Positions 23,196-62,755 of a stretch of DNA of 64,000 nt are shown here, one piece after another (within the stretch, counting starts at the first letter, position 1; each line of letters opens with the position of its first letter). The translations under genes were made by a program, and so were the position numbers. Below the pieces are notes generated by a model. The model was given only the letters and a program-made list of their open reading frames with translations, was not told the origin of the DNA and did not search any database. Origin of the DNA: Emiliania huxleyi CCMP1516 (Eukaryota). The stretch covers positions 174,736-238,735 of the forward strand of contig NW_005201391.1 of the NCBI RefSeq assembly GCF_000372725.1, given 5' to 3'.

Positions 23196-24281
23196 TCACC
23201 TGGCACCGCCCGCCTCTCGCGCCGCCGCTCGCCGCGCCCAAGCCACCTCACGCCTCCACAGTGCGATTGGCCGTGCGGGGAGGCCAGCGATGGTGGTGCC
23301 GGGCGAGTCCACGTGCGAGGTCACACCCGAGCACGCGGCGACGCGAGTGCCTGCGGTTGCGCGGGTGTTGTCTTTTGTGCGGGTGGGGGGCGGGGGGCAG
23401 CTCGGGGGGCGTGCCGGGCCGAGTTGCGGACAGGGGGTGCCGACAGGGAAGGGGAGGGCGGCGAGCTGGCGTGCGCACCTGCGGCGACGGAGACGTGGTC
23501 GGCGACGGCGGCCTTGCCCCCGAGCACGCAGTAGTCTCCTGCCACCACAGGAGCGGCTGAGAGGGAGGGGACGCCTCTCCGCTGCAGACTACAGCAGGAC
23601 TTTGTCGCGGCACCCAGTGTCGCCGAGCCACCGAGCGCCACGTCAGCGCACAGCAGGCAGCCGACACCGATGACGACGTTGTGGCCGACCTGGGACGGGA
23701 CAGCCGGTGTTGGTCGATCGCTGTGGGAAGAACGGCTCGGTGAGGGAAGGGTCCAGTGCCGTCTCGCACACCTGCACCAAATTGTCCATCTTGGTGTGTG
23801 CACCGATGCTCGTGTCGCGCCACGAGCCGCGATCGATGCACGAGCCGGCTCCGACCTCGACGTCTCGCCCGACCACCACGCGTCTCCTCTGCGGCTTCTT
23901 CACCGGCAGCACGTCGCCCTCCAGCACGCTCCCGACGCTGCGCTCGAGGCGCTGGCTTTCCCGGCTCTGCTCGGCGCCTGCCGGCGTCCCTGGAACGAAG
24001 CCGAAGCCGTCGGCTCCGATGCGCACTCCAGCGTGCAACGTGCATCCGCCGCCGATCGAGCAGTGCTGCAGCGACGTGTGCGGCCCGACACTCGTCCCAG
24101 CACCCACCGAAACAGATGAGCCGACGACCGCGCCCGGCCCGAGCACGACGCCCGCGCCCACGCGAGCGCGTGCCTCGACCACGACGCCAGGAGCGAGCCG
24201 CGCTGAGGGGTGCACGCGCGCTGTCGCGTGGATCGTCGCGCCGTCCACCCACCGCCAGGCTCTGCTCCAGCTTCTGCGCAT
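23196..24281 (-). CDS. lpxD: UDP-3-O-acylglucosamine N-acyltransferase (LpxD-like), spliced
   Basis: Hexapeptide repeats plus IGADGFGF, VEVGAGSCIDRG, DTSIGAHTKMDNLVQ|VGHNVVIG, LGGKAAVADHV and G.PARP; stop TGA 23196-23198. Confidence 0.9.
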
Positions 24282-31310: not shown

Positions 31311-34300
31311 TCACTCGACGAAGTGCGCGAGCTTCTCCTTCTCCTTGCGGAGAAATGCCACCTCCGCCCGCACCACCCCGCGCGCCCCGTCGACTGTCAT
31401 GTTGTACCGCTGCGCTAGCTGCGGGTATGTCCACTCCCGCCCGTCCTCGAGGCCTGCAGGGGAGGAAAGCGGAGAGGCTGCGGCGTGGAGAGGCGGAGGG
31501 TTAGGTGGGGCGGGTGGGCCGGCAGGTTAAAGAAGAAAGGGGCGGGGGGCGGGAGGAGGCCCGCAGGGGGGCGTCCTCCGCACCGTACTTGAGCCTCGCC
31601 ATTGTCGCGCGGCGCGGGTCTCGCGCCCGCTGCGTTCTCCGCAACGTCGACGCAAACTCGTCCGCCTGCAGCAGCCGCTCTGCGCCGGATGCGCCCCCCG
31701 CGCGATTGGCGGGCAGGCGGAGGGCGACGCGGTCGGCGAGGGTGGGCACGCGCGCGCTGCCTATGGTCATGAAGGCAGCAGCGTCTGAGGCGAGGAGTCG
31801 GTGTCGAGCAGCGTACTCCGAGCAGCGCGTAGGTGCAGGGTCCACGCATACAGTGAGGACAGCTGGATCCAGCCGAGTGGGTGTCCTCTCGGGTGCTAGT
31901 CGGGGTGCACGGCCGCAGTCTGCTCTCTAGCACGCGGCTGCCTCCCCCGCCAACGACGAGGTGGGGCGGGTCGGCCGCGTCGAGCGAGAGGGTCGCCGAG
32001 TTTGCAAGACCGGTGAGGGCCGCCTGCCCGGGAGAAGAGCCGGATGAGGCGCAGACAGGAGNNNNNNNNNNNNNNNNNNNNNNNNNNNNNNNNNNNNNNN
32101 NNNNNNNNNNNNNNNNNNNNNNNNNNNNNNNNNNNNNNNNNNNNNNNNNNNNNNNNNNNNNAGGTGCTCTAGCTGGTCTGAGAGCCCGTCAAGGACGGGA
32201 GTCAAGTCGATCGTCAGCATGGGGGGGGGGGGGGGCTGGGAGGCGGGGAGGCGGGCGCCCGAGTTGTCGACAGCTAGTCGGTACCGCGCCCTGCGGATCT
32301 GCTGCATGTCTTGCTGCAGCGCCTGGGAGGGGCGGCGAGGGGGCGGCGAGGGGGCGGCGAGGGGGCGGTGAGGTAAGAGACAGAGGCGGTGCGTAGCGAG
32401 TAAAGGGGGTTGCGGGGGGGGAAGGGGTGCGAGGACGGCTGGAGAGGACGGCGGCGGTGCTGCAGACGCCTGAGGCAGCCTCACGAGCCGCCCCTTGTCG
32501 CGGACGGCTCGCAAGACAAAGGCGCGGATGTGCCAGACGGCATAGGTGGAGAAGGCGACGCCGCGTCCGACGTCGAAGAGGCGCAGTGCGCGGAGGAGTC
32601 CCTGCGCGCCCTCCTGCAAAAAGTCGGCCTTCTCCATGACCGACGCGTCCCTCCAGTTCGGGATGACTTGGTTCACCTGCGGGGCGTGCCAGGGTCCGTG
32701 TCGTGGACATGTCGTGGACATGTCTGGGAGGAGGTCTCCAGTTCGGGCGTCTCTCGGAGATGTCTCGGAGGTGTCTCGGAGGTGTCTCGGAGGTGTCTCG
32801 GAGAGGTCTGCACCTCGCGGTAGATCAGGCCCTGGTTCTCGGCGAAGAGGCGGTTGTAGGCGGCTCGGCCTACGCCATGCCACACGCCAGAGGTCAGGGC
32901 AGAAAGGGGCAGAGAGTACAAGGGCTGCGGCGTGCGGCGAGCAGAGTCGAGTGGGAGGGGAGGGGCAGGGTCCGTGTCCTTGCATCTAGGGGGGGAGGGG
33001 CCAATAGACTCGCGCAGTCGGAACTCGACGTCGCTCATCGAGGGCGGCAGCATCTCGCGCAGCTCGGCGACGTCGCGAGAGGCCCACGGGGCGCAGACGC
33101 CGCTCGACTGGGGAGGGGAGGGTGGGTGGGGGGGGGGGGGGAGGTGGGGGGGTGGTGGGGGGGGGGGGGTTAAAGAAAGTCCCGGAGGGGGGGGAACTTT
33201 CCGGAAAATTTGGGAAGACTTCCGGAAACTTCCGGAAATTTCCGGAAAAAATGTGGGAATCCCCCGGGGAAACAAACCTGGGGGGGAACCCCAACCCCCC
33301 CCGCGGCGGTGGCGGAAGCAGCCGCCGCCGCGGCGGGTTTTTCCGTGTGGCCCATGCGGCTTAAGACCCCCTGCAGCGAGGGGGGGGGCCTTACCGTGGC
33401 GCCCGTCTTCTTCGGCTTCTTCGGCGGTTTGGGGGCCAGCTCCCTCCGCGCATTGGAAGCCTGCAAACGTGTCCCGGACATTTCCCGGACTTTTCCCGGA
33501 CCGGTGTCCCGGAAGGGTCCTGGACCTTTTTCGGTGTCCCCAAAGTTTCCCCGAAGTNNNNNNNNNNNNNNNNNNNNNNNNNNNNNNNNNNNNNNNNNNN
33601 NNNNNNNNNNNNNNNNNNNNNNNNNNNNNNNNNNNNNNNNNNNNNNNNNNNNNNNNNAAAAAAGCGCCGCAAAAAAGCGAGGGCATAGCTTTCTCTGAGG
33701 CGCATACAAAAAGCACGAAAAACACAGCTGAGTGGATCCGGATATAGGCTCCTTTGACAGATGAAGGAAGGGGGGGGGTGAAGGAAGGTGCGGGAGGGGG
33801 GGGAGCTTGCGGGAGAGTGTGGGAGGACTGCGGGAGACTGCGGGAGATTGCGGGAGAGAGTGTGGGAGTCCGCGGGGGAAGCAGACCTGGGCGGCAGCCG
33901 CAGCCGCGCCGGCGGCGGTGGCGGAGGCAGCGGCGGCGGCGGCGGGCTTGTCGGTGTGGCGCATGCGGCTGAGGACCGCCTGCAGCGAGGCGGGCGGCCT
34001 GACCGTGCCGCCCGCCTCCTCCGCCTCCTCCGCCGCCTCGGCGGCCAGCTCCCTCCGCGCATCGGACGCCTGCGAACGTGTCGCGGACGTGTCGCGGACG
34101 TGTCGCGGACGGGTGTCGCGGAGGTGTCATGGACGTGTTGCGGTGTCGCGGAGGTGTCGCGGAGGTGTCGCGGAGGTGTCGCGGAGGTGTCGCGGAGTGT
34201 CGCGGAGGTGTCGTGGAGGTGTGCAGAGGCGGCTGGGCCTTGAGAGGGCTTGGCGAGAGGTTGCGGCGGCGATGCCAGAAGCAGAGGAGGGGCGGAGCGG

Positions 34301-35066
34301 GAGGTGTCTCGGGCGTGCGCGGGAAGTGTCTCGGACGTGCCGCGCGCCGTCAGAAAGAACCAGGCACGCTGGACGAGGCGGAGGGTCGCCTATGGGGGAA
34401 GGCTCCCAGAGGGTTCCTGGAAGGTTCCTAGAAGGCGCGCTGGACGAGGCGGAGGGTGTCCTCGTTGCCGAGGGGCCGCGTCCGCACGGGGCGCGTGGGC
34501 AGGCCGGTCGAGGCCGAGAAGCCGCGCAGCACCGACGGCTCGCGGAGCAGGTGGTCTGCCGCAGCCGCAGCCTCGCGCTCGAGCAGGTGCAGCACGCTCG
34601 CATCCTCGAGCGGCGCTGCCTCGCCAGCCTCGAGGCGGTCGGCGGCGCGGGCGGTCGCCGCCGGGCCGGCGGGCAGCGCTGTGCCCACGCCGGGGAGCGA
34701 CGCCTCCCCTCCCGCCAAGAGCTCCTCGACGATCGCACCGTCCAGCCGCTGCTGCGAGGCGCGGGCGAGGTTGTCGAGTGGCGCAAAGGGATCGAATCCC
34801 TCGCGCGACTGCGGCGGCCGCTCCTGCTGCTGCGCCTCACGCATTTGCTGCTGCCCCTGCTGTGGCCCCTGCTGCTGCTGCTGCAAAATCAGCTGCCTCA
34901 CCAGCAGCTGCTGCCGCCTCTGCCGCCGCTCGGAGACCCACGCTCCAGGCGCCGCGGCGTCGCGGTCCTGGGTCGTGCGCCGCACGACATGCGGAGGAGG
35001 GCGGCGCTGCGTCGGCTCGACGGCCACCCCGAGCACCAGCGCGGCTGCGGAGAGCAGCAGCGGCAT
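31311..35066 (-). CDS. Nucleus-encoded plastid RNA polymerase sigma70-type factor, multi-exon
   Basis: Signal peptide MPLLLSAAALVLG. Region 2: RLFAENQGLI..DFLQEGAQGLLRALRLFDVGRGVAFSTYAVWHIR..RLVRLP. Region 3: PTERVAEFA-like segment. Region 4: RLKY|GLEDGREWTYPQLAQRYNMT. Stop 31311-31313. Two N-gaps fall inside. Confidence 0.88.
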
Positions 35067-40076: not shown

Positions 40077-40640
40077 CTCTTGAGCACTTGAGTGAGCACT
40101 TGATAGGGTCGATTCCGCATGGTACGGGACCCCTCGATCGTCTCGCCCTCCCTCACTGGTGTGTTCATTGGGGGGGGGTCATAACAATTCACGGTATAGG
40201 ATCGAGGTGCACGCGTCGCTGCCGAGCGAGGCAGTGTCGTCCCCCCTCTCCATCATCTTGAGCACTTGAGCACTGGATAGGGTCGGTTCCGCATGGTACG
40301 GGACCCCTCGATCGTCTCGCCCACCCTCACTGGTGTGTTCATTGGGGGGGGTCATAACAAACACGGTACAGGATCGAGGTGCACGCTGCCAAAGCAGTGT
40401 CGTCCCCCCTCTCCCCGACGGCGATGGCGGTGTGACCGATCGAGCTACAAGAGGAGCTTGTTCAGCAGGATCCGGGATAGTCTGATGCACTACCTCACTG
40501 GGCCTGAGACCATCAGCCAGCATCCCGTCACCGTCTCGGGTTTGTGTGGGATCGAACCACTCCGGGATGGGCAAGCCCATCGTTAAACCATCTGGTTAAT
40601 TGTCAGAATTCCTGTTGTGCAAGAGGGGAGGGGGCTCTGA
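40077..40640 (-). mobile_element. tRNA-derived SINE-like element, copy 1 (3' part tandemly duplicated)
   Basis: Minus strand carries A-box-like TAACCAGATGG and B-box GGTTCGATCCC (~40548-40600). Homologous to 44215-44511; ends in AGTGCTCAAG repeats; 40077-40255 is repeated at 40256-40415. Confidence 0.55.
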
Positions 40641-50006: not shown

Positions 50007-53000
50007 TCAAGCGTCCGGGAAGACGCCCAAGAAGGTTGCGTCCCCCACGAGCGGGGGCATCGGGCTCTCCTCGACGATGGGGGCGGGCGCCTCCGTCGGC
50101 GGCGCGAGCGTGGGCGTGGCGGCGGCCGCGGCGTGATCGAAGGCAGTCCGCGCCTGCGCGAGCCGGCCCACGCCGGTCCAAAACTCGTGCAGCATGCCGC
50201 CCTCCATCTTCGCGTCGCTAGTCAGCGCGATCGCAGTCAGGACGAGCATGGCGGCGCGCCCCGCCTCGACGGGCGGCTCCAACGGGCCGAGGTGAGGCCC
50301 GAGCCGCCGCCGCCTCCGGCGCGCCGCCTCCGGGACCTTGCCCAGCGGCGCACGCACGTTGCGGAGCAGCGAGCGCGCCTCGAAGAGCGAGTACGTGCCG
50401 GCCTGCATCGCCCAGCAGAGCGCGCCGAGGCCGCTAAGGCCCGAGAGGGGGGGCGCGTCCGCCGCCGTCCAGCCCGTCAGCACGAGCCACAGCCACGTGA
50501 GCAGCGCGGTGAGGGCAACGTTGCCGTGCTTCCGCTCCGCCTCGACCCGCCACGCCGCCTGGTCGCTCGCGTCGTCGCTCTGGATTAGGGACCATGGCCA
50601 GGGTACGCGCCCCGCCCAGTAGCGCGTGTCGCTGCTCACGCCGCTGTCTGCCGCCGCCATGGCCTCGAGCGTCTCGCTCGTCTCGCGCCGCGCCGGCCGC
50701 CAAGTCGCTGCCTCGAGGGGACCGAGGACGTCCCCGTTCTGCAGCGCGTAGTCGGCGCGCACGAGCCTCCCGTTGACCACCGCCCGCGCCAGCGCCTCGC
50801 CGGGCGTAGGCCCGCCGCCGGCCGGCAGCGAGCGGAGGGCGGCCTCGACCGTCACGCCAGCCTCGAAGGAGAGGACTGTGCCGTCCTCCTGCGACGCGAG
50901 CACGCGCCGCGCGCGCAGCGCCGTGTGGACACGGCCGATGGTGTGCTCGGCACGCGACACCTCGCCCGCCCCCGCCCGCCGGCTCGCGCGCCGCACCAGC
51001 TGCTTTGGCCTGGCCGCCCCCGCCGCCCCGGCCGCCGGCGCGGCGACCCTCGGCGTTGCGGCACTCGGCGTCGTGGCGGGAGCGGAAGGCGGAGAGTAAG
51101 CTGGATCGGCGCGGCCGCCTCGGCCGCCGCGGGGCTGGCTCACCTCGACTCGGCACGCTCGGCCGCGCACCTCTCGGCCGGTCAGCTCGCGACACGCAGC
51201 CGCCGCGTCGCTCGCGTCAGCAAAGCTGACAAACCCATAGCCGCGGGAGCGTCCCGTCTCGCGGCTGGTGGCGACGCGGCACTCGGTGAGCCGCCCAAAC
51301 GGGGCAAACAGCTCCTGCAAGTCGCCCTCGGTCACGTCGAAGCTGAGCGAGGCGACGAAGAGCTTGCGGCGGTCCGACTCCGGCCGGCGCGGCGAGCGAG
51401 ACGCCGCGCCGGCCTCCACCTCTCGCGGCGCGGAGCCACCGCCGCGGCCACCGCCGCGGCCACCGCCGCCGCCCTCCGCCCTCTCGCTGCCCTCGCCTGC
51501 CTCCGCCCCGCCGTCGCCGCCAAAGAGGCGCCGCTCCTCGGCGACCCGCCGCTTGACGGGCGAGCGGCGCGGCTCGCCGAAGCCGGTCGTCTGGTCGAAG
51601 CCGAGCTCGCGCTGCCAGACCTGGTGCGCCGCGTCGCGGCGGCGGTCGTCCGCCTTGTACAGCCAATGCGCCGCCGAGCCGTACTCTGCCTGGTGGTGCA
51701 TCTCGGCGGTGCGCACCTGCACCTCCGCCTTGATGCCGCGCACCAGCGCGCACGAGTGGAGGGAGCGGTAGCCGTTTGGCTTCGGCGAGGCGATGAAGTC
51801 CTTGAGGAGCGCGCCCTTGGCCGTCGAGGCGACGGGCAGCGTCTTGTGCACCGCCTCGAGCACGCGGTAGCACAGCAGCGCCTGCCGCGCCTCCCAGTCC
51901 CGCGCGCTCATCCGCTCCGGCCGGTGCCCGTCCGGGGAGAGGGGCCGCGTCTCGGTCGGCATCACCACCAAGCGGAAGGCGAGCAGGTCGTCGAGCCCGT
52001 CGACGCTCTCCAGCCCCTTGCGCTCCATCTTGCGCGCCACAGAGACGAGGTCCTTGATGCGCGCGTGCACCCGGATCCACTTTGTCTGCCGCTGCAGCAG
52101 CGGGTCGGACGCCAGCGCCGCCTCGATCTGCCCCTCCGCCTCCTCGAGCGCCGGCCGCGCGCGCTCCGTCAGGTCCGCCAGCGCAGAGGAGAGGGCGGCA
52201 TACTCGGCAGGCCTCCCCACCGAGAAGGCTAGGATCTCGAGCTCCGTCTTGAAGTACCTGAGAGGCGGGCGTGGCAGGGTGTGCGCCACCGTACTGCTTA
52301 GCGCGGCATTTGGAGGGGCTCCAGGGAGAGGAGTCTCGCACCACATCCCGAGCCGCTGCGCGAGCGGGATGAACACCTCCTCCGTCTGCTGCGTGAAGAC
52401 GTCGCGCCGCTGCAGCAGCGCGCGCCACTCGGCGGCGTCGCCGCCGCACCGCTGGAAGGCGGCGCACGCGGCGCCGCTGTCGAGCGCACACGCGCTCAAG
52501 CAGCCGAGCGCGCAATCCGAGCGGCGAGGCGCGGCGGCCAGCTCGTTGACGCCTTACGGGAAGGCTCCGAGAAGGTTCAGAGAAGGTTCCAGGTGGCGAG
52601 GCGCGGCGGACAGCGGTTGACGCCGAGCTGCTGGCCGACCATCGCGCCGTACAGCTCGCGCATCGAGACGAGGCGCGACGCGAGCGCGATTGCAATCGAG
52701 CGAGGGTCGTCGCAGCCGGCGAGCATGATCTGGCACTGCCGCTCGAGCTGCTCCGCCCGACTCGCGCCGAGCTCGCCCCCTTCTTCTGCCACGCCGGCGC
52801 CAGCGCCGCCGTCCGCACCCTCGGCGGCGCGCTCGAGCCGCGCCGAGAGGCGCCATACCGTCGAGACGCCGCCGCCAATCTCGTCGATGGCGGCGGCCGC
52901 CTCCTCTCCGAGGATGGCAGTCAAGTCCTGCGCCGCCACGCCAACCTCCGCCTCGCGCAAGCCCGCCAGCATCGCAGCCTCGATGACCTCTCCGTCGGCC

Positions 53001-55074: not shown

Positions 55075-56231
55075 GCTGACACGGCCGGGCGCGCCGCTCG
55101 CCGCTGCCGACGCCGTCGAGGGGGCTGCGGTGGCGGTCTACTTCTCGGACGTGTCGCGCTGGTGCCGCGGCTCGAGCGTGTCCAAGACTGCGACGGGGAG
55201 GAGCTGCTCTTGTCGACCCTCTCCCCTCCCTCCCTTGTAGGTACCGCGGCGAGGTGGCTTCCGTCAACAACGACGGCACCTTTGGCGTGGGGCGTACGAG
55301 CTGTGAAGAGACGCTGTGTTCACACCTGCAGCTGTGAGCAGGCACCTTTGGCGTGGCGTACGAGGACGGCGACGAGGAGGAGGCGGTGCCGCTGGCGGAG
55401 CTCTTTCATCCAGCGGCTGAGGCTGGGAGGCCCGCCCACTCCGACGAGCAGAGGCTGACGGCGGCCCGAGAGAGGTGTGTGTCCGAGACCACGTCGCACA
55501 TTATACTATGTGGTCGCGCAGTTGGACCAACCGATGCGCCGGGCTTCGAGAGCGAGGCGGCAGACGCCGACAGTGGGGTTTCGGCTCGCGGGACGTCGTC
55601 AAGGAGACGACTTGTCGGCTGGCGGACGGGTTATCGAGGCCCCTCGTGGACGGGTTATCGAGGCGTCTACAAGCATGGGAATAAGTACCGCGCGCGCCTG
55701 GACGTCCCGGGCGGGGAGGGGGAAGGGGGAGGGAAGTCCCGCTACGTCGGCAGCTTCGACACGGTCGAGGAGGCGGCAGCGGCGCGGGCTGCGGCCGCTG
55801 AGGAGCAGCGGCGGAGCGATGAAGCTGCGCGCGCGCCCAGGCTGGCTCGGCAGGCGGAGGCGGCACGCCAGCAGGCCATAAGCGAGGGGCTGCAGCTTGA
55901 GCCGTCGAGCTCGAACACGAGCACAGGCTTCCGCGGCGTGGTTGTGTATGACGCGGGCAAGCGCTCACTCAGAACGTGCTACCGCGCTTACAATGCCATG
56001 CATTGGCAACATCGCGGGGCGGACGACCATGCTGGCCAGAATGCACAATGGATCTCGGGCACGTTTGAGACGGTGGAAGAAGCCGCGCTCGCTTACGCGC
56101 GTAGCCGCGCGATGGCCAAGATCGCGAAGCAGGGGCAGGATCGGAGGTTCAAAAGCTGTAAATCATATTGGAGGGGTGGGGGTGGGAGGGGCGGGGGTGG
56201 GAGGGGCGCTAAAATAAATGGACGTGCGTAA
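54617..56231 (+). CDS. RING finger + RanBP2-type zinc finger + polyQ + Tudor-like + two AP2 domains
   Basis: CPICWDTF..PVLTPCGHRFCEAC..CPSCR; WNCRGCTLANPAAAERCATC; polyQ run; SRW|YRGEVASVNND|GTFGVAYEDGDEE after removing introns 55162-55240 and 55276-55341; TGYRGVYKHGNKYRARL..YVGSFDTVEEAA and TGFRGV..GTFETVEEAALAYAR. Confidence 0.85.
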
Positions 56232-57657: not shown

Positions 57658-60600
57658 TCACGTCGCCGCCCCACCCACCTTGTCTTGCACGGCACATGCG
57701 ACGGCCTGGCAGCGCGCGTCGTTCGCGCTCGCAACCGCCACCGCCGCAGCCGCGGCGGCACCCTCGACGTTGCGGCGCACGGGCGGGAGTGGAGGCATGG
57801 CGAGGCGCGGCGCGGCGTTCCACGGTGGGTCGGCGCTGGGCCGCGCCACCGCCGCCGCCGCTGCCGCTGCCGCCGCCGCCGCCGACGCCACCGACGCCGC
57901 CGCCGCCGCTGCCTCGAGGCCCATGGGGGGGGGCGCCTGGACGCGAAGTGCGCGGTCGGGGTCACGGGATTGTGCAGTGTGCTCACGGAATCGCGTGGCT
58001 GTGAGCACAGCTCAAGACGGCAGGTGGCAGTTGGGCCCTTCTGTGCGTGTGCCCTCTCGAGAGCTTGTTGGAATGCACGCATCTGCATTCCGGAGACAGC
58101 ATCTAGGGGCGGTCCGCCGGCGTACGCAGTGGCGGCATCGCGTCGGGCGGGGACGCTCCCGGCCCGCGGCTCTCCTACATCGCAAGGTTGGGGGGGAGGC
58201 TCTCGGGAGGCGTCCGGGAAGGGCCTGGAGGAGGCTAGCCGCCCGCGGCTCGCCTCGAGCCCCCGCCCGCTGTTTGGCAGCGTCGTGTTTGGGAAGACCT
58301 GAGCAATGCCGCAAGCGCTCCGACGGGAGCCGAGACGGCCGAGATGAGATGCCATGCGTCGAGATGACAGACGAGAGAAGCCGGGAGATGCGCCGAGATG
58401 CGCCGAGATGCGCCGAGATTAGCCGCGCCCGGAAGATGCCGCTCGCCGGCGACGCCGACACGGGGACCGCACAGCGCGAGGCGACGAGCAGCCGCTGCGG
58501 GGTGCCGGGAAGGACGGAGAGCGTGGAGTCGACGATCAGCGGCGTGGCGGCGCCGCTGACGGCGACGCGATGCACCACGCGTGCCGCGCATGCCGGGGCG
58601 TCCACTGCGCTGCCGCTGCCCGACGCGGCGGCGAGGAGGGCGCGTGCGGTCTGCACGAAGGCAACGTGCTCGTCGGCGTGGAGCACCCGCAGCAGCGACA
58701 CGCCCGATAGCTCGGCGGGCGAGAAGCCGAACGGGCGCGGCGTGAGGCAGCCGGAGATTGCGAGGTCGGGCTGCACCACGAGCACCTGGCGCGAGATTAG
58801 GCGAGATTAGGCGAGATTGGCAGAGATCGACTCGAGAGTGGCCGAGGTGGGGCGCTGCGCCGCAAGCACACCGAGCAGCCCGTCGCAGCGAGCACCTCGA
58901 GGGCGGCGGGAGTGATGCCCGACACCGCCTCACCGCCCGGGTGCGCGCCGCTGGGCAGCAGCTGCTGCCGCCCCCCTCCGGCCGGCTTTGGCGGCGCGCG
59001 CGGCGGCGGAGGGACGGCGGCGGCGCCGCTCACAGCGTGCGCCCCGGATCGCTGCCGCACCAGCAGCCGCACGTCCGAGCTTTGCGCGTCGGGGCGCTCG
59101 CCTAGTGGACATGTCTCGGCCATGTCTCGGGCATGCCATGTCTCGGGCATGTCTCGGCCATGTCTCGGCCATGTCGGGCGCGGTCCAGAGTGTGTCCTCC
59201 GTGTTCCGCATCTGAGGAGCCGCTCACGCCGTGCGCGCGTGCGCTTCCTCCTCCTCCTCTCCTCCCACTACTCCTACTTCTTCCGCATCTGGGGGGCGCT
59301 CGCCGCGAGTGCGTCGGCGTGCGTCGACGTGGATGGGAGGCGAGGTGAGGCAGGCGAGGGCCTGGGCCTGGTGCAAAGAGGGGTGTGCGTGGTGGAGGCA
59401 GGGGGGCAAGGGTGAGGGGTGTGTGGCAGAGGGAGGGAGGGAGGGAGGGAGGGAGGGAGGGAGGGAGGGAGGGAGGGAGGGAGGGAGGGAGAGGAGAAGT
59501 TAGATGGAGGGAGGGAGGGAGAGAGGAGCGGGGAGAGAGAGGAGGAGAGAGGAAGAGAGGGAGAGTCTAAGGGAGAGGGCCGACGTCCGAGGCGAGGTGA
59601 GGCAGGCGAGGGCCTGTGCGCCGCCCTCGCCCGGCTCGGCGCCCTGCAGCGGCGCGGCGAGGACGGTGACGAGGAGGTGGAAGGGGCGGTTGCCGCAGTT
59701 GAAGGACGTCTGCGTGAGCAGCAGCGACGAGAAGTTGGCCTCGAACAGCGCACCTGGAGAAAGCCGGGGGGGGGGGGGGGGGGCTTGAAAGGGCAAGGGC
59801 GTGTGCCCGGAAAAACTCGGCTCTTGGCTGGTCTCGTCTGAGCTCGGCTCATCTCGGGTGATCTCGGCTTGAGCTCGGCTGATCTCGGCTTGAGCTCGGC
59901 TGATCTCGGCTTGAGCTCGGCTGATCTTGGCTTGAGCTCGCACCCGAGGACGCGGTCAGCCGCTGCACGCAGTCGCCCGACAGGCCCTGCGGTAGGCAGC
60001 AGTGGTACTGGTGGGACTCGACGAGGCGGAGCGGTAGATGGGGCGATCGCCGCTCATGTTGGGGCGGGCTGTGTAGCGTGCCCTGCGGCGGTACAGGGGG
60101 CCTGCCTGGGCCGGGAAGGGGGCGGGTCGCACCTGGTCGTGCAGCTCCGAGTCTCCCGCAACCAGAGTGCCACATGAGATCATCGCGAGCAGCGGGCGGT
60201 CGAGGGGCACGCCGGCGCCGACGTCGACCGACACAAAGATGCGCGGCAGCGACCACTTCTTGTGCCACATCCAGCGCGACCGCTCGCGCCAGTACAGGAG
60301 AGGCGTCTGCAGCCGCACCGTCACCGTCAGGTCCGAGTCGCACTCCTGCCCCGTGATCACCGCGCCGCCCGGCATCGCCTTGAGCGGGCAGTAGCAGCGC
60401 GCCTGGGAGCACCGTGATGTTGCTGGTGCGGAGAGGGCATCGGGCAACGTGGCAAAGGCATGGGGTCAGCGGTGACGGAGGACGGAAATGTCTCGGAAGT
60501 GTCAACGCGCGCCCACTCAAAGGGCAAGTCGGCGTCGCTCGCCGCCGTGCTCGCGGCGGCGTCGGCGGTGGTCGCCCCGCCCGAATGCCCCGGCATCGGC

Positions 60601-61276: not shown

Positions 61277-62755
61277 TCAAACACCCATGGGACAATAAGA
61301 TGAGATTGCCAGATGGGCGTGCGGCCGCCACGCCTCGACCTTCTTGGGCAGCAGCTGGTTCAACAGGTCCTCTCCGTGGCCTAGGCAGCCGCGTGCACCG
61401 TTGCCCCAGGTAAAGACGGCGCCGTCGGCGGTAATGGCGAGACTGTGGAAGTTCCCCGCCGACACAGCGACGACGCGCTGGCCAGCCAAGGCCTCGACCT
61501 GCTTGGGCAGCAGCTGGCGCTGCTGGTCGCCCTGGCCCAACTGGCCATCTTCGCCAAGGCCCCAGCTCCAGACAGCTCCGTCGGCGGTGAGGGCGAGACT
61601 GTGGAAGTTCCCCACCGACACAGCGACGACGCGCCGCCCAGCCAACGCCTCGACCTTCTTGGGCAGCAGCTGGTACTGCTGGTTGCCGTGGCCCAACTGG
61701 CCCCCGCCTCCAGCGCCCCAGCTCCAGACGGCGCCGTCGGCGGTGATGGCGAGGCTGTGAGTAAAGCCAGCCGACACAGCGAGGACGCGCTGGCCAGCCA
61801 AGGCCTCGACCTTCTTGGGTAGCAGATGGTTCTGCCAGTCGCCGTGGCCCAACCGGCCATCGCCTCCCCAGCCCCAGCTCAAGACAGCGCCGTCGGCGGT
61901 GAGGGTGAGGCTGTGCGGACCTCCAGCCGACACAGCGACGACGCGCCGCCCAGCCAAGGCCTCGACCCTCTTGGGCAGGAGCTGGTTCTGACGGTCGCCG
62001 TGGCCCAGCTTGCCATAGCCTCCATCGCCCCAGCTCCAGACGGCTCCGTCGGCGGTGAGGGCGAGGTTGTGCACCTCTCCAGCCGAGACAGCGACGACGC
62101 GCCGCCCAGCAAAGGCCTCGATCTTCTTGGGCAGCAGCTGGATCTGCCAGTCGCCGTGGCCCAACCGGCCTTGCCCTCCATAGCCCCAGCTCCAGACAGT
62201 GCCGTCGGCGGCGAGGGCAAGGCTGTGGCCGGGGGCAGCCGACACGCTCATGGCGCGCTCGCCGCCCAGAGGCGAAGGGAGGAGGGTCGGCGTGTTGAGC
62301 TGCGTCACTCCCTCGCCGTGCCCGAGCAGCCCTGGCAGCCAGCTCTCAGCCTTTCCGCACGACGAGAGCCGCCCCTCGCCGTCGATGAAAAGGTTGTGCC
62401 GATCGCCTGCTGCTGCCCTCGCCGGCGGGTTGGACTCGCACAGCAGCGCAGCGAAGCACAGCCACCGCACGGTGCAGCCCTCGCCCTCTGGCTGCGCAGG
62501 CAGCACGTAGCCGCGCTCTTGCGCCCACAAGCGGATGCCCTCCACCGCAAGCGAGGCGTGAAAGAGGAGCGAGATGGCCGCAGCGCGAGCGATGTCGACG
62601 GGGCTTTTGCAGCGAGAGAGGGCGCGCGCGAGGAGCTCCGTGGGGAGGTCGAGGAGGCGGGGGGGCGGCGGCGTGTCTGGCGAGGGAGCGGCGGTGGAGG
62701 CGGAGGCGGAGGCGAGGCGGCGCGAGCGGCGCGAGCGGCGCGGCGGGGTGGACAT
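61277..62755 (-). CDS. F-box-like + RCC1-repeat (beta-propeller) protein
   Basis: RLLDLPTELLARAL at the N-terminus; ~7 repeats of VSAG..HSLALTADGAVWSWG.G..G.LGHGD..QLLPKKVEAL; ATG at 62755; intronless. Confidence 0.92.
   Translation of the reverse strand: MSTPPRRSRRSRRLASASASTAAPSPDTPPPPRLLDLPTELLARALSRCKSPVDIARAAAISLLFHASLAVEGIRLWAQERGYVLPAQPEGEGCTVRWLCFAALLCESNPPARAAAGDRHNLFIDGEGRLSSCGKAESWLPGLLGHGEGVTQLNTPTLLPSPLGGERAMSVSAAPGHSLALAADGTVWSWGYGGQGRLGHGDWQIQLLPKKIEAFAGRRVVAVSAGEVHNLALTADGAVWSWGDGGYGKLGHGDRQNQLLPKRVEALAGRRVVAVSAGGPHSLTLTADGAVLSWGWGGDGRLGHGDWQNHLLPKKVEALAGQRVLAVSAGFTHSLAITADGAVWSWGAGGGGQLGHGNQQYQLLPKKVEALAGRRVVAVSVGNFHSLALTADGAVWSWGLGEDGQLGQGDQQRQLLPKQVEALAGQRVVAVSAGNFHSLAITADGAVFTWGNGARGCLGHGEDLLNQLLPKKVEAWRPHAHLAISSYCPMGV

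What the first reader, a model, noticed from the sequence alone, without database searches (positions are those of the whole stretch)
59085..59620. Two consecutive introns with exon-start duplications, one an exact 25-mer
Seen (minus strand): intron 59362-59613 begins GCCCTCGCCTGCCTCACCTCGCCTC, identical over 25 nt to the start of the following exon, with (CCCT)n filler between. Intron 59102-59303 begins GCGAGCGCCCCCCAGATGCG and the next exon begins GCGAGCGCCCCGACGCG, with an 11-mer (GCCGAGACATG) filler. Both donors are GC. Inference: the exact copy marks a very recent intron gain, the best test case in the window.
Basis: partly seen in the sequence, partly recalled or inferred. Interest (0 to 1): 0.7.

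Follow-up and report, generated by a model that had tools for sequence, protein, structure and literature searches.

The report
Young intron flanked by duplicated exon
In a gene of a marine alga, a spliced intron sits between two copies of the same 28-31 bases of coding DNA with simple-repeat filler between them, which likely marks an intron born by repair of a DNA break, and related algae carry several predicted introns of the same build, some filled with telomere-like repeats.

Summary
The duplications are real: 28 nt exact (30 of 31) at intron 1 and 12 nt exact at intron 2, both beyond chance. One RNA contig shows both introns spliced. Gain is supported. A 94%-identical ORF that reads into both neighbouring introns lacks intron 1, and none of 18 distant haptophyte loci covering the sites has either intron at the same position. 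'Very recent' is not shown: 3 of 3 DNA runs laid carry intron 1's 3' end, and an exact 28-mer only bounds divergence below about 10%. GC donors are ordinary here. The wider lead: 7 of 18 hand-picked introns in related haptophyte loci carry 13-23-nt junction repeats (0 of 306 control pairs), often with telomere-like filler and lineage-specific presence. This is a variant of break-repair intron gain that may recur across haptophytes.

The parts
59614..59753 (-). Exon upstream of intron 1 (conserved TSFNCGNRPF motif)
   Evidence: open frame; homologs; RNA loose end continues into it
59589..59619 (-). 5' copy of the 31-nt direct repeat (6 nt exonic, 25 nt intronic; GC donor at 59613)
   Evidence: D8; window assembly only
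59368..59613 (-). Intron 1 as spliced in the RNA contig: 246 nt, GC-AG
   Evidence: X11 record 9 matches to 59370, then the upstream exon; first AG after the pyrimidine tract
59368..59588 (-). Filler, 221 nt, 87% pyrimidine, with 15 perfect CCCT copies (59430-59489); source unidentified
   Evidence: 3' part present in DNA runs X1, X4, X8
59337..59367 (-). 3' copy of the 31-nt repeat, wholly exonic in the RNA contig
59362..59367 (-). Six duplicated bases kept in the mRNA (extra Ala-Gln); the AG at 59362-3 is a possible second acceptor
   Evidence: absent from P0001; lies in a linker of variable length in homologs
59304..59367 (-). Exon between the two introns
59102..59303 (-). Intron 2, 202 nt, GC-AG
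   Evidence: RNA joint skips 202 nt with 12 ambiguous letters; present in 3 of 3 DNA runs
59281..59304 (-). Decayed copy of the next exon's start (12 nt exact, then a 3-nt insertion)
59195..59225 (-). Second, internal decayed copy of intron 2's 5' end
   Evidence: (D10, 81%)
59110..59175 (-). 11-mer minisatellite in intron 2, about 5.5 copies; a high-copy family in the organism
   Evidence: summed contig depth 1400-4500 vs about 45 in flanks for X1 and X4
58872..59101 (-). Exon downstream of intron 2
58786..58871 (-). Intron 3, 86 nt, GT-AG, no long junction repeat (control)
   Evidence: RNA joint; score 4
58299..58428 (-). Intron 4, GC-AG, 10-mer filler, no long junction repeat (control)
   Evidence: RNA loose end; frame
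59754..59943 (-). Predicted upstream intron, 21-mer filler, 6-nt junction repeat
   Evidence: frame against homologs; not RNA-tested
59987..60132 (-). Predicted upstream intron, no long junction repeat
   Evidence: not RNA-tested

Best explanation
Intron 1 is a spliced GC-AG intron that likely arose when about 31 bases of exon were duplicated at a staggered DNA break and about 220 bases of low-complexity DNA were likely filled in between the two copies. The upstream copy supplies the donor (CAG|GC), and the filler supplies the pyrimidine tract and the AG that the RNA contig uses. Splicing removes the filler and 25 nt of one copy, leaving two extra codons in a length-tolerant linker. Intron 2 is likely an older product of the same process, since lengthened by a second internal duplication and a minisatellite. 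The gain is likely confined to this lineage but is older than the alleles sampled. SHOWN: the repeats, splicing of both introns, the acceptor used in one contig, absence of both introns at these positions in distant relatives, and the same anatomy in related loci. INFERRED: the intron-less ancestral state in close kin (one ORF), the break, the enzyme that made the filler, and the age.
For: Repeat far beyond chance. Splicing. P0001 is 94% identical, starts inside the upstream intron, runs into intron 2, and is continuous across the intron-1 site without the extra Ala-Gln; it is the window's sister in a tree (100/99). Of 22 loci, 18 cover both sites and none has an intron at either exact position. 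In related loci, 7 of 18 hand-picked introns score >=12 for junction repeats vs 0 of 306 mismatched donor/acceptor pairs. Two of those are in L016-L018 only and are absent from their sister L015 and from L010; another, with a 9-nt repeat, is in L016 but not L018. Three further candidates lie in the window. Staggered-break intron gain with end repeats is documented in Daphnia (PMC4202315, section 19 read; PMC3443670 passages).
Against: P0001 is a single protein from a 553-nt contig whose DNA I could not read. It could be a partly spliced transcript (89% of inspected E. huxleyi introns showed retention reads, PMC4028052 passages), an assembler collapse of a 28-nt repeat, or a reversion. A third search found no second ORF like it (3 hits among 42 candidates). 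No intron-less DNA contig was listed in 3 DNA runs (140 pieces and 59 loose ends not shown; runs were chosen for holding the stretch). The 18 loci are distant (42-76% in the best segment), may be paralogues, and some may be transcripts. The window-wide enrichment tests were negative: 7 vs 3.8 expected, 4 of the 7 being this same repeat read on the other strand; 5 of 14 vs 3 of 14 in a mirror control. Introns in related loci were picked by eye and are not RNA-verified, and an automated version was weak (4 of 11 vs 6 of 102). The filler has no identified template.
Confidence: 0.72

Rival explanations
1. Intron 1 is an older intron whose 5' end was later overwritten or extended by a copy of the next exon's start (template switch or local conversion), and P0001 lacks it only through partial splicing or assembly collapse.
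For: Intron retention is pervasive in E. huxleyi (PMC4028052 passages). 3 of 3 DNA runs hold the intron. Intron 2 shows that secondary duplications occur inside existing introns.
Against: P0001 lacks the extra Ala-Gln seen in the spliced contig and has both flanking introns unspliced. No relative has an intron at this position. Equivalent introns in L016-L018 are absent from sister and outgroup loci.
Confidence: 0.1
2. The filler is a degenerate mobile element (target-primed retroelement or introner), and the 28-31-nt repeat is its target-site duplication.
For: The anatomy (duplication either side of an insert) is that of an insertion. Two other 71-nt candidate introns in the window share a similar filler end. 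In related loci, 4 of 18 introns end in the same 9-mer.
Against: No terminal inverted repeat at the intron-1 ends among the 25 of 62 pairs shown. No second copy of the filler's unique parts in the window beyond low-complexity matches. Introns 1 and 2 have unrelated fillers.
Confidence: 0.1
3. Plain tandem genomic duplication: a whole segment of about 250 nt was duplicated, its AG|GC served as both splice sites, and the middle later decayed into microsatellite.
For: The repeat holds a proto-splice site CAG|GC. The mechanism is recognised (PMC3443670 passages). The 3' filler aligns weakly to the repeat.
Against: That alignment is not significant (132 of 1000 shuffles reach it). An exact 28-mer next to 221 nt with no exon likeness does not fit even decay. 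The RNA contig uses the filler's AG, not the duplicated one.
Confidence: 0.05
4. The 5' copy is an assembly error beside a microsatellite.
For: The copy was seen only in the window's assembly, and contigs of the laid runs end at or before the microsatellite.
Against: The copy is followed by about 100 nt of non-periodic sequence before the perfect run. The RNA junction needs a G-Y donor at exactly this place. The same anatomy recurs in independent assemblies.
Confidence: 0.03

Closest known systems
Daphnia pulex neointrons ascribed to staggered double-strand-break repair (PMC4202315, section 19 and passages read; Li et al. 2009 as cited in PMC3443670 passages)
   Same: Direct repeats at opposite ends, inserted filler, layered secondary duplications inside the intron (as in intron 2), and gains at neighbouring sites in separate lineages (L016-L018 one codon from intron 1; L022 one base from intron 2).
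   Different: The end repeat here is 28-31 nt (13-23 nt in related loci), whereas the repeats tabulated in the section read were 4-17 nt. The filler is C/T-rich microsatellite, minisatellite or telomere-like. Within-species polymorphism, which defines the Daphnia cases, was not seen here.
Intron gain by tandem genomic duplication of an AGGT proto-splice site (PMC3443670 passages)
   Same: A duplicated exonic segment supplies the donor; imprecise gain that adds codons is foreseen.
   Different: Only 25 of 246 intron bases are exon copy, and the acceptor used comes from the filler.
Interstitial telomeric sequences inserted by telomerase at repaired breaks in mammals (PMC2246262, outline and passages)
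   Same: In related loci, telomere-like hexamers sit between target duplications (CCCTAA is the telomere motif of Phaeocystis globosa, PMC11347835 passage).
   Different: Duplications were a minority there (6 of 130 rodent and 4 of 25 primate loci), and the passages read do not describe the inserts as introns. The window's own filler is not telomeric.
Introner elements (PMC12130899, term search and two passages)
   Same: Intron gain by insertion with a target-site duplication.
   Different: No terminal inverted repeats or multi-copy family were shown for introns 1 and 2. The main text has no hit for haptophy-, Emiliania, Phaeocystis or telomer-; its datasets were not opened.
Direct repeats near intron borders in general (PMC11782384, abstract)
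   Same: Repeats of 4-30 bp (mean 11.4) near borders, read as break-repair scars.
   Different: A broad survey; the abstract reports no presence/absence test. The 28-31-nt case lies at the top of its range.

Membership tests
Break-repair (staggered DSB) neointron, Daphnia type | Direct repeat at opposite ends, overlapping the splice junctions, beyond chance | tested here: met
   28 exact / 30 of 31 nt (intron 1), 12 nt (intron 2)
Break-repair (staggered DSB) neointron, Daphnia type | Insert is removed by splicing with the frame kept | tested here: met
   one RNA contig; intron 1 leaves two extra codons
Break-repair (staggered DSB) neointron, Daphnia type | Empty site in outgroups | tested here: met
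   0 of 18 covering loci have an intron at either exact position; loci are distant and some may be transcripts
Break-repair (staggered DSB) neointron, Daphnia type | Empty allele within the species or in a sister species | tested here: inconclusive
   P0001 lacks intron 1, but its DNA was not read; 3 of 3 DNA runs carry the intron
Break-repair (staggered DSB) neointron, Daphnia type | Origin by break repair itself | not testable with these tools
   inferred from anatomy only
Tandem genomic duplication intron | Intron body is a copy of adjacent exon sequence | tested here: not met
   25 of 246 nt; filler not like the flanks
Tandem genomic duplication intron | Duplicated proto-splice site gives both donor and acceptor | tested here: inconclusive
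   donor yes; the one contig uses the filler's AG for intron 1, and use of the duplicated AG in other transcripts is not excluded; in intron 2 the A of AG is not duplicated (left match 1)
Introner element | Family of near-identical introns across the genome | not testable with these tools
   no whole genome held; none in the window for intron 1
Introner element | Transposon termini (inverted repeats) at the insert ends | tested here: not met
   none among the 25 of 62 inverted pairs shown
Telomerase-made interstitial insertion | Filler of telomeric hexamers (window intron 1) | tested here: not met
   no 6-nt periodicity; CCCT run
Telomerase-made interstitial insertion | Filler of telomeric hexamers (related loci L010, L011, L016-L018) | tested here: met
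Telomerase-made interstitial insertion | First added bases match the organism's telomerase RNA beside the template | not testable with these tools
   4 of 18 introns share one 9-nt end, but no telomerase RNA sequence was available

The most novel reading that the evidence does not exclude
Haptophytes run a transposon-free intron factory: staggered breaks in exons are filled by a repeat-adding polymerase, telomerase itself in some lineages. Its C-rich strand delivers a ready-made branch-point-like CTAAC, a pyrimidine tract and a terminal CAG, while a 13-31-nt target duplication delivers a GT or GC donor. The CCCT and 10-11-mer fillers of this genome's introns would be that process's lineage-specific output, and intron 1 one of its youngest products.
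Probability: 0.25. Interest if true: 0.88.

Novelty: new variant of a known kind. Interest (0 to 1): 0.6.

Why it matters
Where non-transposon intron sequence comes from is an open question; break-repair gain had five unambiguous cases and no in vivo demonstration in the 2012 review read (PMC3443670, Table 1 passage). Here the scar is long enough to read without ambiguity, RNA shows which part supplies each splice site, and a small, hand-picked sample of related loci gave seven more cases, some lineage-specific. With many strains and sister species sequenced, haptophytes could give a genome-wide test of break-repair intron gain and of a role for telomerase. The single locus alone is a clear example of a known kind.

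Tried and rejected
No whole genome is held, so filler copy number and genome-wide counts were not possible. Window-wide enrichment of AG|G-Y-anchored repeats was not significant; one search's low-complexity filter even dropped the focal repeat. The automated scan of telomere-like arrays was weak, because arrays were split and the null held repeat-to-repeat matches (4 of 11 vs 6 of 102); it was replaced by hand-picked introns. Filler as a local templated copy: not significant; filler as degenerate telomere repeat: no. A loose end at 59356 in all three DNA runs is a short match to another gene, not an intron-less allele (it reads like Raptor, label recalled). Repeats at 40207-40378 and 31505-31960 were rejected as introns (the first is part of a larger tandem duplication, and neither gives a convincing frame); 23964-24258 has only a 10-nt repeat. 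Trees: rows L017 and L018 were mis-spliced at their middle intron, and row L015 was truncated; both trees place L015 beside L017+L018 (87/80 and 93/97), neither at starred support. Depth steps were not used. Pfam gave only sub-threshold PAS hits for P0002 and P0005, one above threshold for P0009, and nothing for the upstream domain. No paper describing this pattern in haptophytes turned up in searches, nor in term look-ups of PMC11347835, PMC12480563, PMC8379373, PMC12130899 and PMC2784329. The E. huxleyi genome paper is not held, and no supplements were opened; they may list haptophyte introners or intronic repeats.

Full report
Setting. The window is a GC-rich eukaryotic scaffold. The host gene lies on the minus strand, about 58200-60400 or further. 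Its homologs include a named haptophyte protein (P0005, Coccolithus braarudii, 35% identical to P0002), with a PAS-like C-terminal part. GC donors and 10-11-mer intronic repeats fit Emiliania/Gephyrocapsa: the GC-donor figure (56-65%) is from PMC4028052 (passages), while the 10-11-mer association and the genus assignment are recalled and come from no call. No whole genome is held.

The observation. Intron 1's first 25 nt equal 59361-59337; with the preceding CAG the match is 28 nt, and 30 of 31 nt. The single difference is a synonymous Ala codon (seen). The chance of the 23 nt beyond the donor is at most 10^-10.5 under any model tried, and 0 of 400 null sites come near its score (25 vs 8.5). 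Intron 2 has 12 exact nt, extending to 17 of 20 with a 3-nt gap; 0 of 400 null sites reach it, though much of the match is donor-like consensus. Of the gene's six introns, these two are the only ones scoring >=12, against 0 of 30 mismatched pairs.

Splicing. Of 17 runs listed, 16 hold the stretch or part of it; I laid 4 of them, on 58400-59428. One RNA contig (X11, 899 nt) skips 202 nt at intron 2 and 86 nt at intron 3, matches the window without a difference up to 59370, then continues in the upstream exon. That AG is the last base pair of the filler and the first AG after the pyrimidine tract. The mRNA keeps six duplicated bases, a second Ala-Gln, in a linker whose length varies widely among homologs (30-122 residues between two motifs). 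This is one contig of a field sample, 8 differences in 655 aligned letters; use of the second AG in other transcripts is not excluded. An allele with only a 6-nt duplication and no intron would give the same RNA, but the window's DNA explains it without that.

Is it a gain? P0001 (94% identical; ENA, 553-nt contig) begins inside the upstream intron, runs on into intron 2, and crosses the intron-1 site with neither intron nor extra Ala-Gln. It is the window's sister in a tree (100/99). ORFs read off unspliced DNA of this gene do occur in that database (P0054, P0056). This is the expected empty site, but it is one record with no DNA in hand; partial splicing, assembler collapse and reversion are open, and a further search found no second such ORF. 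Among 22 metagenome loci, 18 cover both sites and none has an intron at either exact position. L016-L018 have a different intron one codon from intron 1, and L022 has one a single base from intron 2. L010, L011, L015-L018 and L022 are genomic by their own introns; others may be transcripts, and all are distant.

How young? All three DNA runs laid (three studies) carry intron 2 and the 3' end of intron 1; no intron-less contig was listed, though 140 pieces and 59 loose ends were not shown and the runs were chosen for holding the stretch. Zero differences in 28 sites bound divergence only below 10%, and 1 in 31 below 14%. In L017 a 15-nt copy is still exact in an intron shared with L018, whose exons differ by 3-7%. 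So intron 1 is likely young but not shown to be polymorphic. Intron 2 is older: it is present in P0001, its copy is decayed, and it holds a second internal copy of its own 5' end, like the layered events described in Daphnia (PMC4202315 section 19). The 5' copy in intron 1 has not been seen outside this assembly.

The same build elsewhere. In the loci fetched, I picked by eye 18 distinct introns from printed stretches (L010, L011, L016/L017, L022; near-duplicate loci and L018 orthologues left out; none RNA-verified). Seven carry 13-23-nt junction repeats, against 0 of 306 mismatched donor/acceptor pairs. Five of the seven duplicate the next exon's start and are filled with CCCTAA-like hexamers; two duplicate the previous exon's end and have other fillers. 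Four of 18 end in the same 9-mer. Two such introns occur in L016-L018 but not in their sister L015, which shares a third intron with them, nor in L010 (the tree rows had splice errors, and support is 87/80 and 93/97). One with a 9-nt repeat is in L016 but not L018. In the window, 55276-55341 (+), 52553-52623 (-) and 34390-34460 (-) look like further cases. Against this, blind window-wide tests showed no enrichment, and the automated array scan was weak.

Mechanism. The best fit is a staggered break whose overhangs are filled to give a 31-nt duplication, with low-complexity DNA added between the ends; it survives because the upstream copy holds CAG|GC and the filler ends in a pyrimidine tract and AG (0.72). 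The break and the enzyme are inferred. The filler is 221 nt, 87% pyrimidine, not a copy of the flanks (132 of 1000 shuffles), not telomeric, and not repeated in the window. In the related loci the telomere-like filler suggests telomerase, as proposed for mammalian interstitial repeats (PMC2246262 passages); that its C-rich strand contains a branch-point-like CTAAC is my inference from recalled consensus. Rivals: old intron overwritten (0.10), mobile element (0.10), plain tandem duplication (0.05), assembly error (0.03).

Comparison and verdict. It works like the Daphnia break-repair neointrons and meets their anatomical tests; the polymorphism test is inconclusive. It fails the tandem-duplication test (body not exon-derived) and shows no introner termini. 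Ten literature searches found no account of this pattern in haptophytes; PMC8379373 (passage) raises haptophyte intron gain as an open question. The genome paper was not held, and supplements were not opened. Verdict: new variant of a known kind, interest 0.6, driven more by the recurring haptophyte pattern than by the single locus.

Noticed in passing
L010:204-302, L010:1045-1133, L011:2068-2185, L017:1299-1407, L017:1800-1894 (also L016, L018, L021): Predicted introns made of a 13-23-nt exon-start duplication plus CCCTAA-like telomeric filler; three of these five, and L010:350-459, end in the same 9-mer. The two in L017 are absent from sister locus L015.
   Followed up: partly
L010:350-459 and L010:664-772: Predicted introns with no duplication that start with G-rich telomere-like sequence (the donor is part of it) and switch to C-rich repeats, a head-to-head arrangement.
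   Followed up: no
L010:545-610, L016:1842-1903, L016:1967-2059, L016:2102-2214: Mirror class: the upstream exon's end (7-20 nt) is duplicated at the intron's 3' end, and the filler supplies the donor; L016:2102-2214 is absent from L018.
   Followed up: partly
window 55276-55341 (+): Candidate 66-nt GC-AG intron with a duplication of about 25 nt (16 exact); removing it restores an open, Tudor-like frame (label recalled). Not RNA-tested.
   Followed up: partly
window 52553-52623 (-) and 34390-34460 (-): Two candidate 71-nt introns with 20-30-nt exon-start duplications and related 11-mer fillers with similar 3' ends; the second would need a GA donor. Possibly one small family.
   Followed up: partly
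L022:638-758 and L017:1800-1894: Introns 1 nt from window intron 2 and one codon from window intron 1, in other lineages: near-parallel gains or, for the first, a one-base slide.
   Followed up: partly
window 58200-60400 (-): The host gene belongs to a family with a conserved N-terminal domain that has no Pfam hit, plus a PAS-like domain; the one homolog named to species is a haptophyte. The motif spacing recalls Ig-fold DNA-binding domains (recalled, not tested).
   Followed up: no
window 59376: All three DNA runs differ from the window at this base in intron 1's pyrimidine tract: an allele difference or an assembly error.
   Followed up: no
window 61332-62245 (-): Tandem 156-nt coding repeat, 5.8 copies, RCC1-like by recall.
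   Followed up: no
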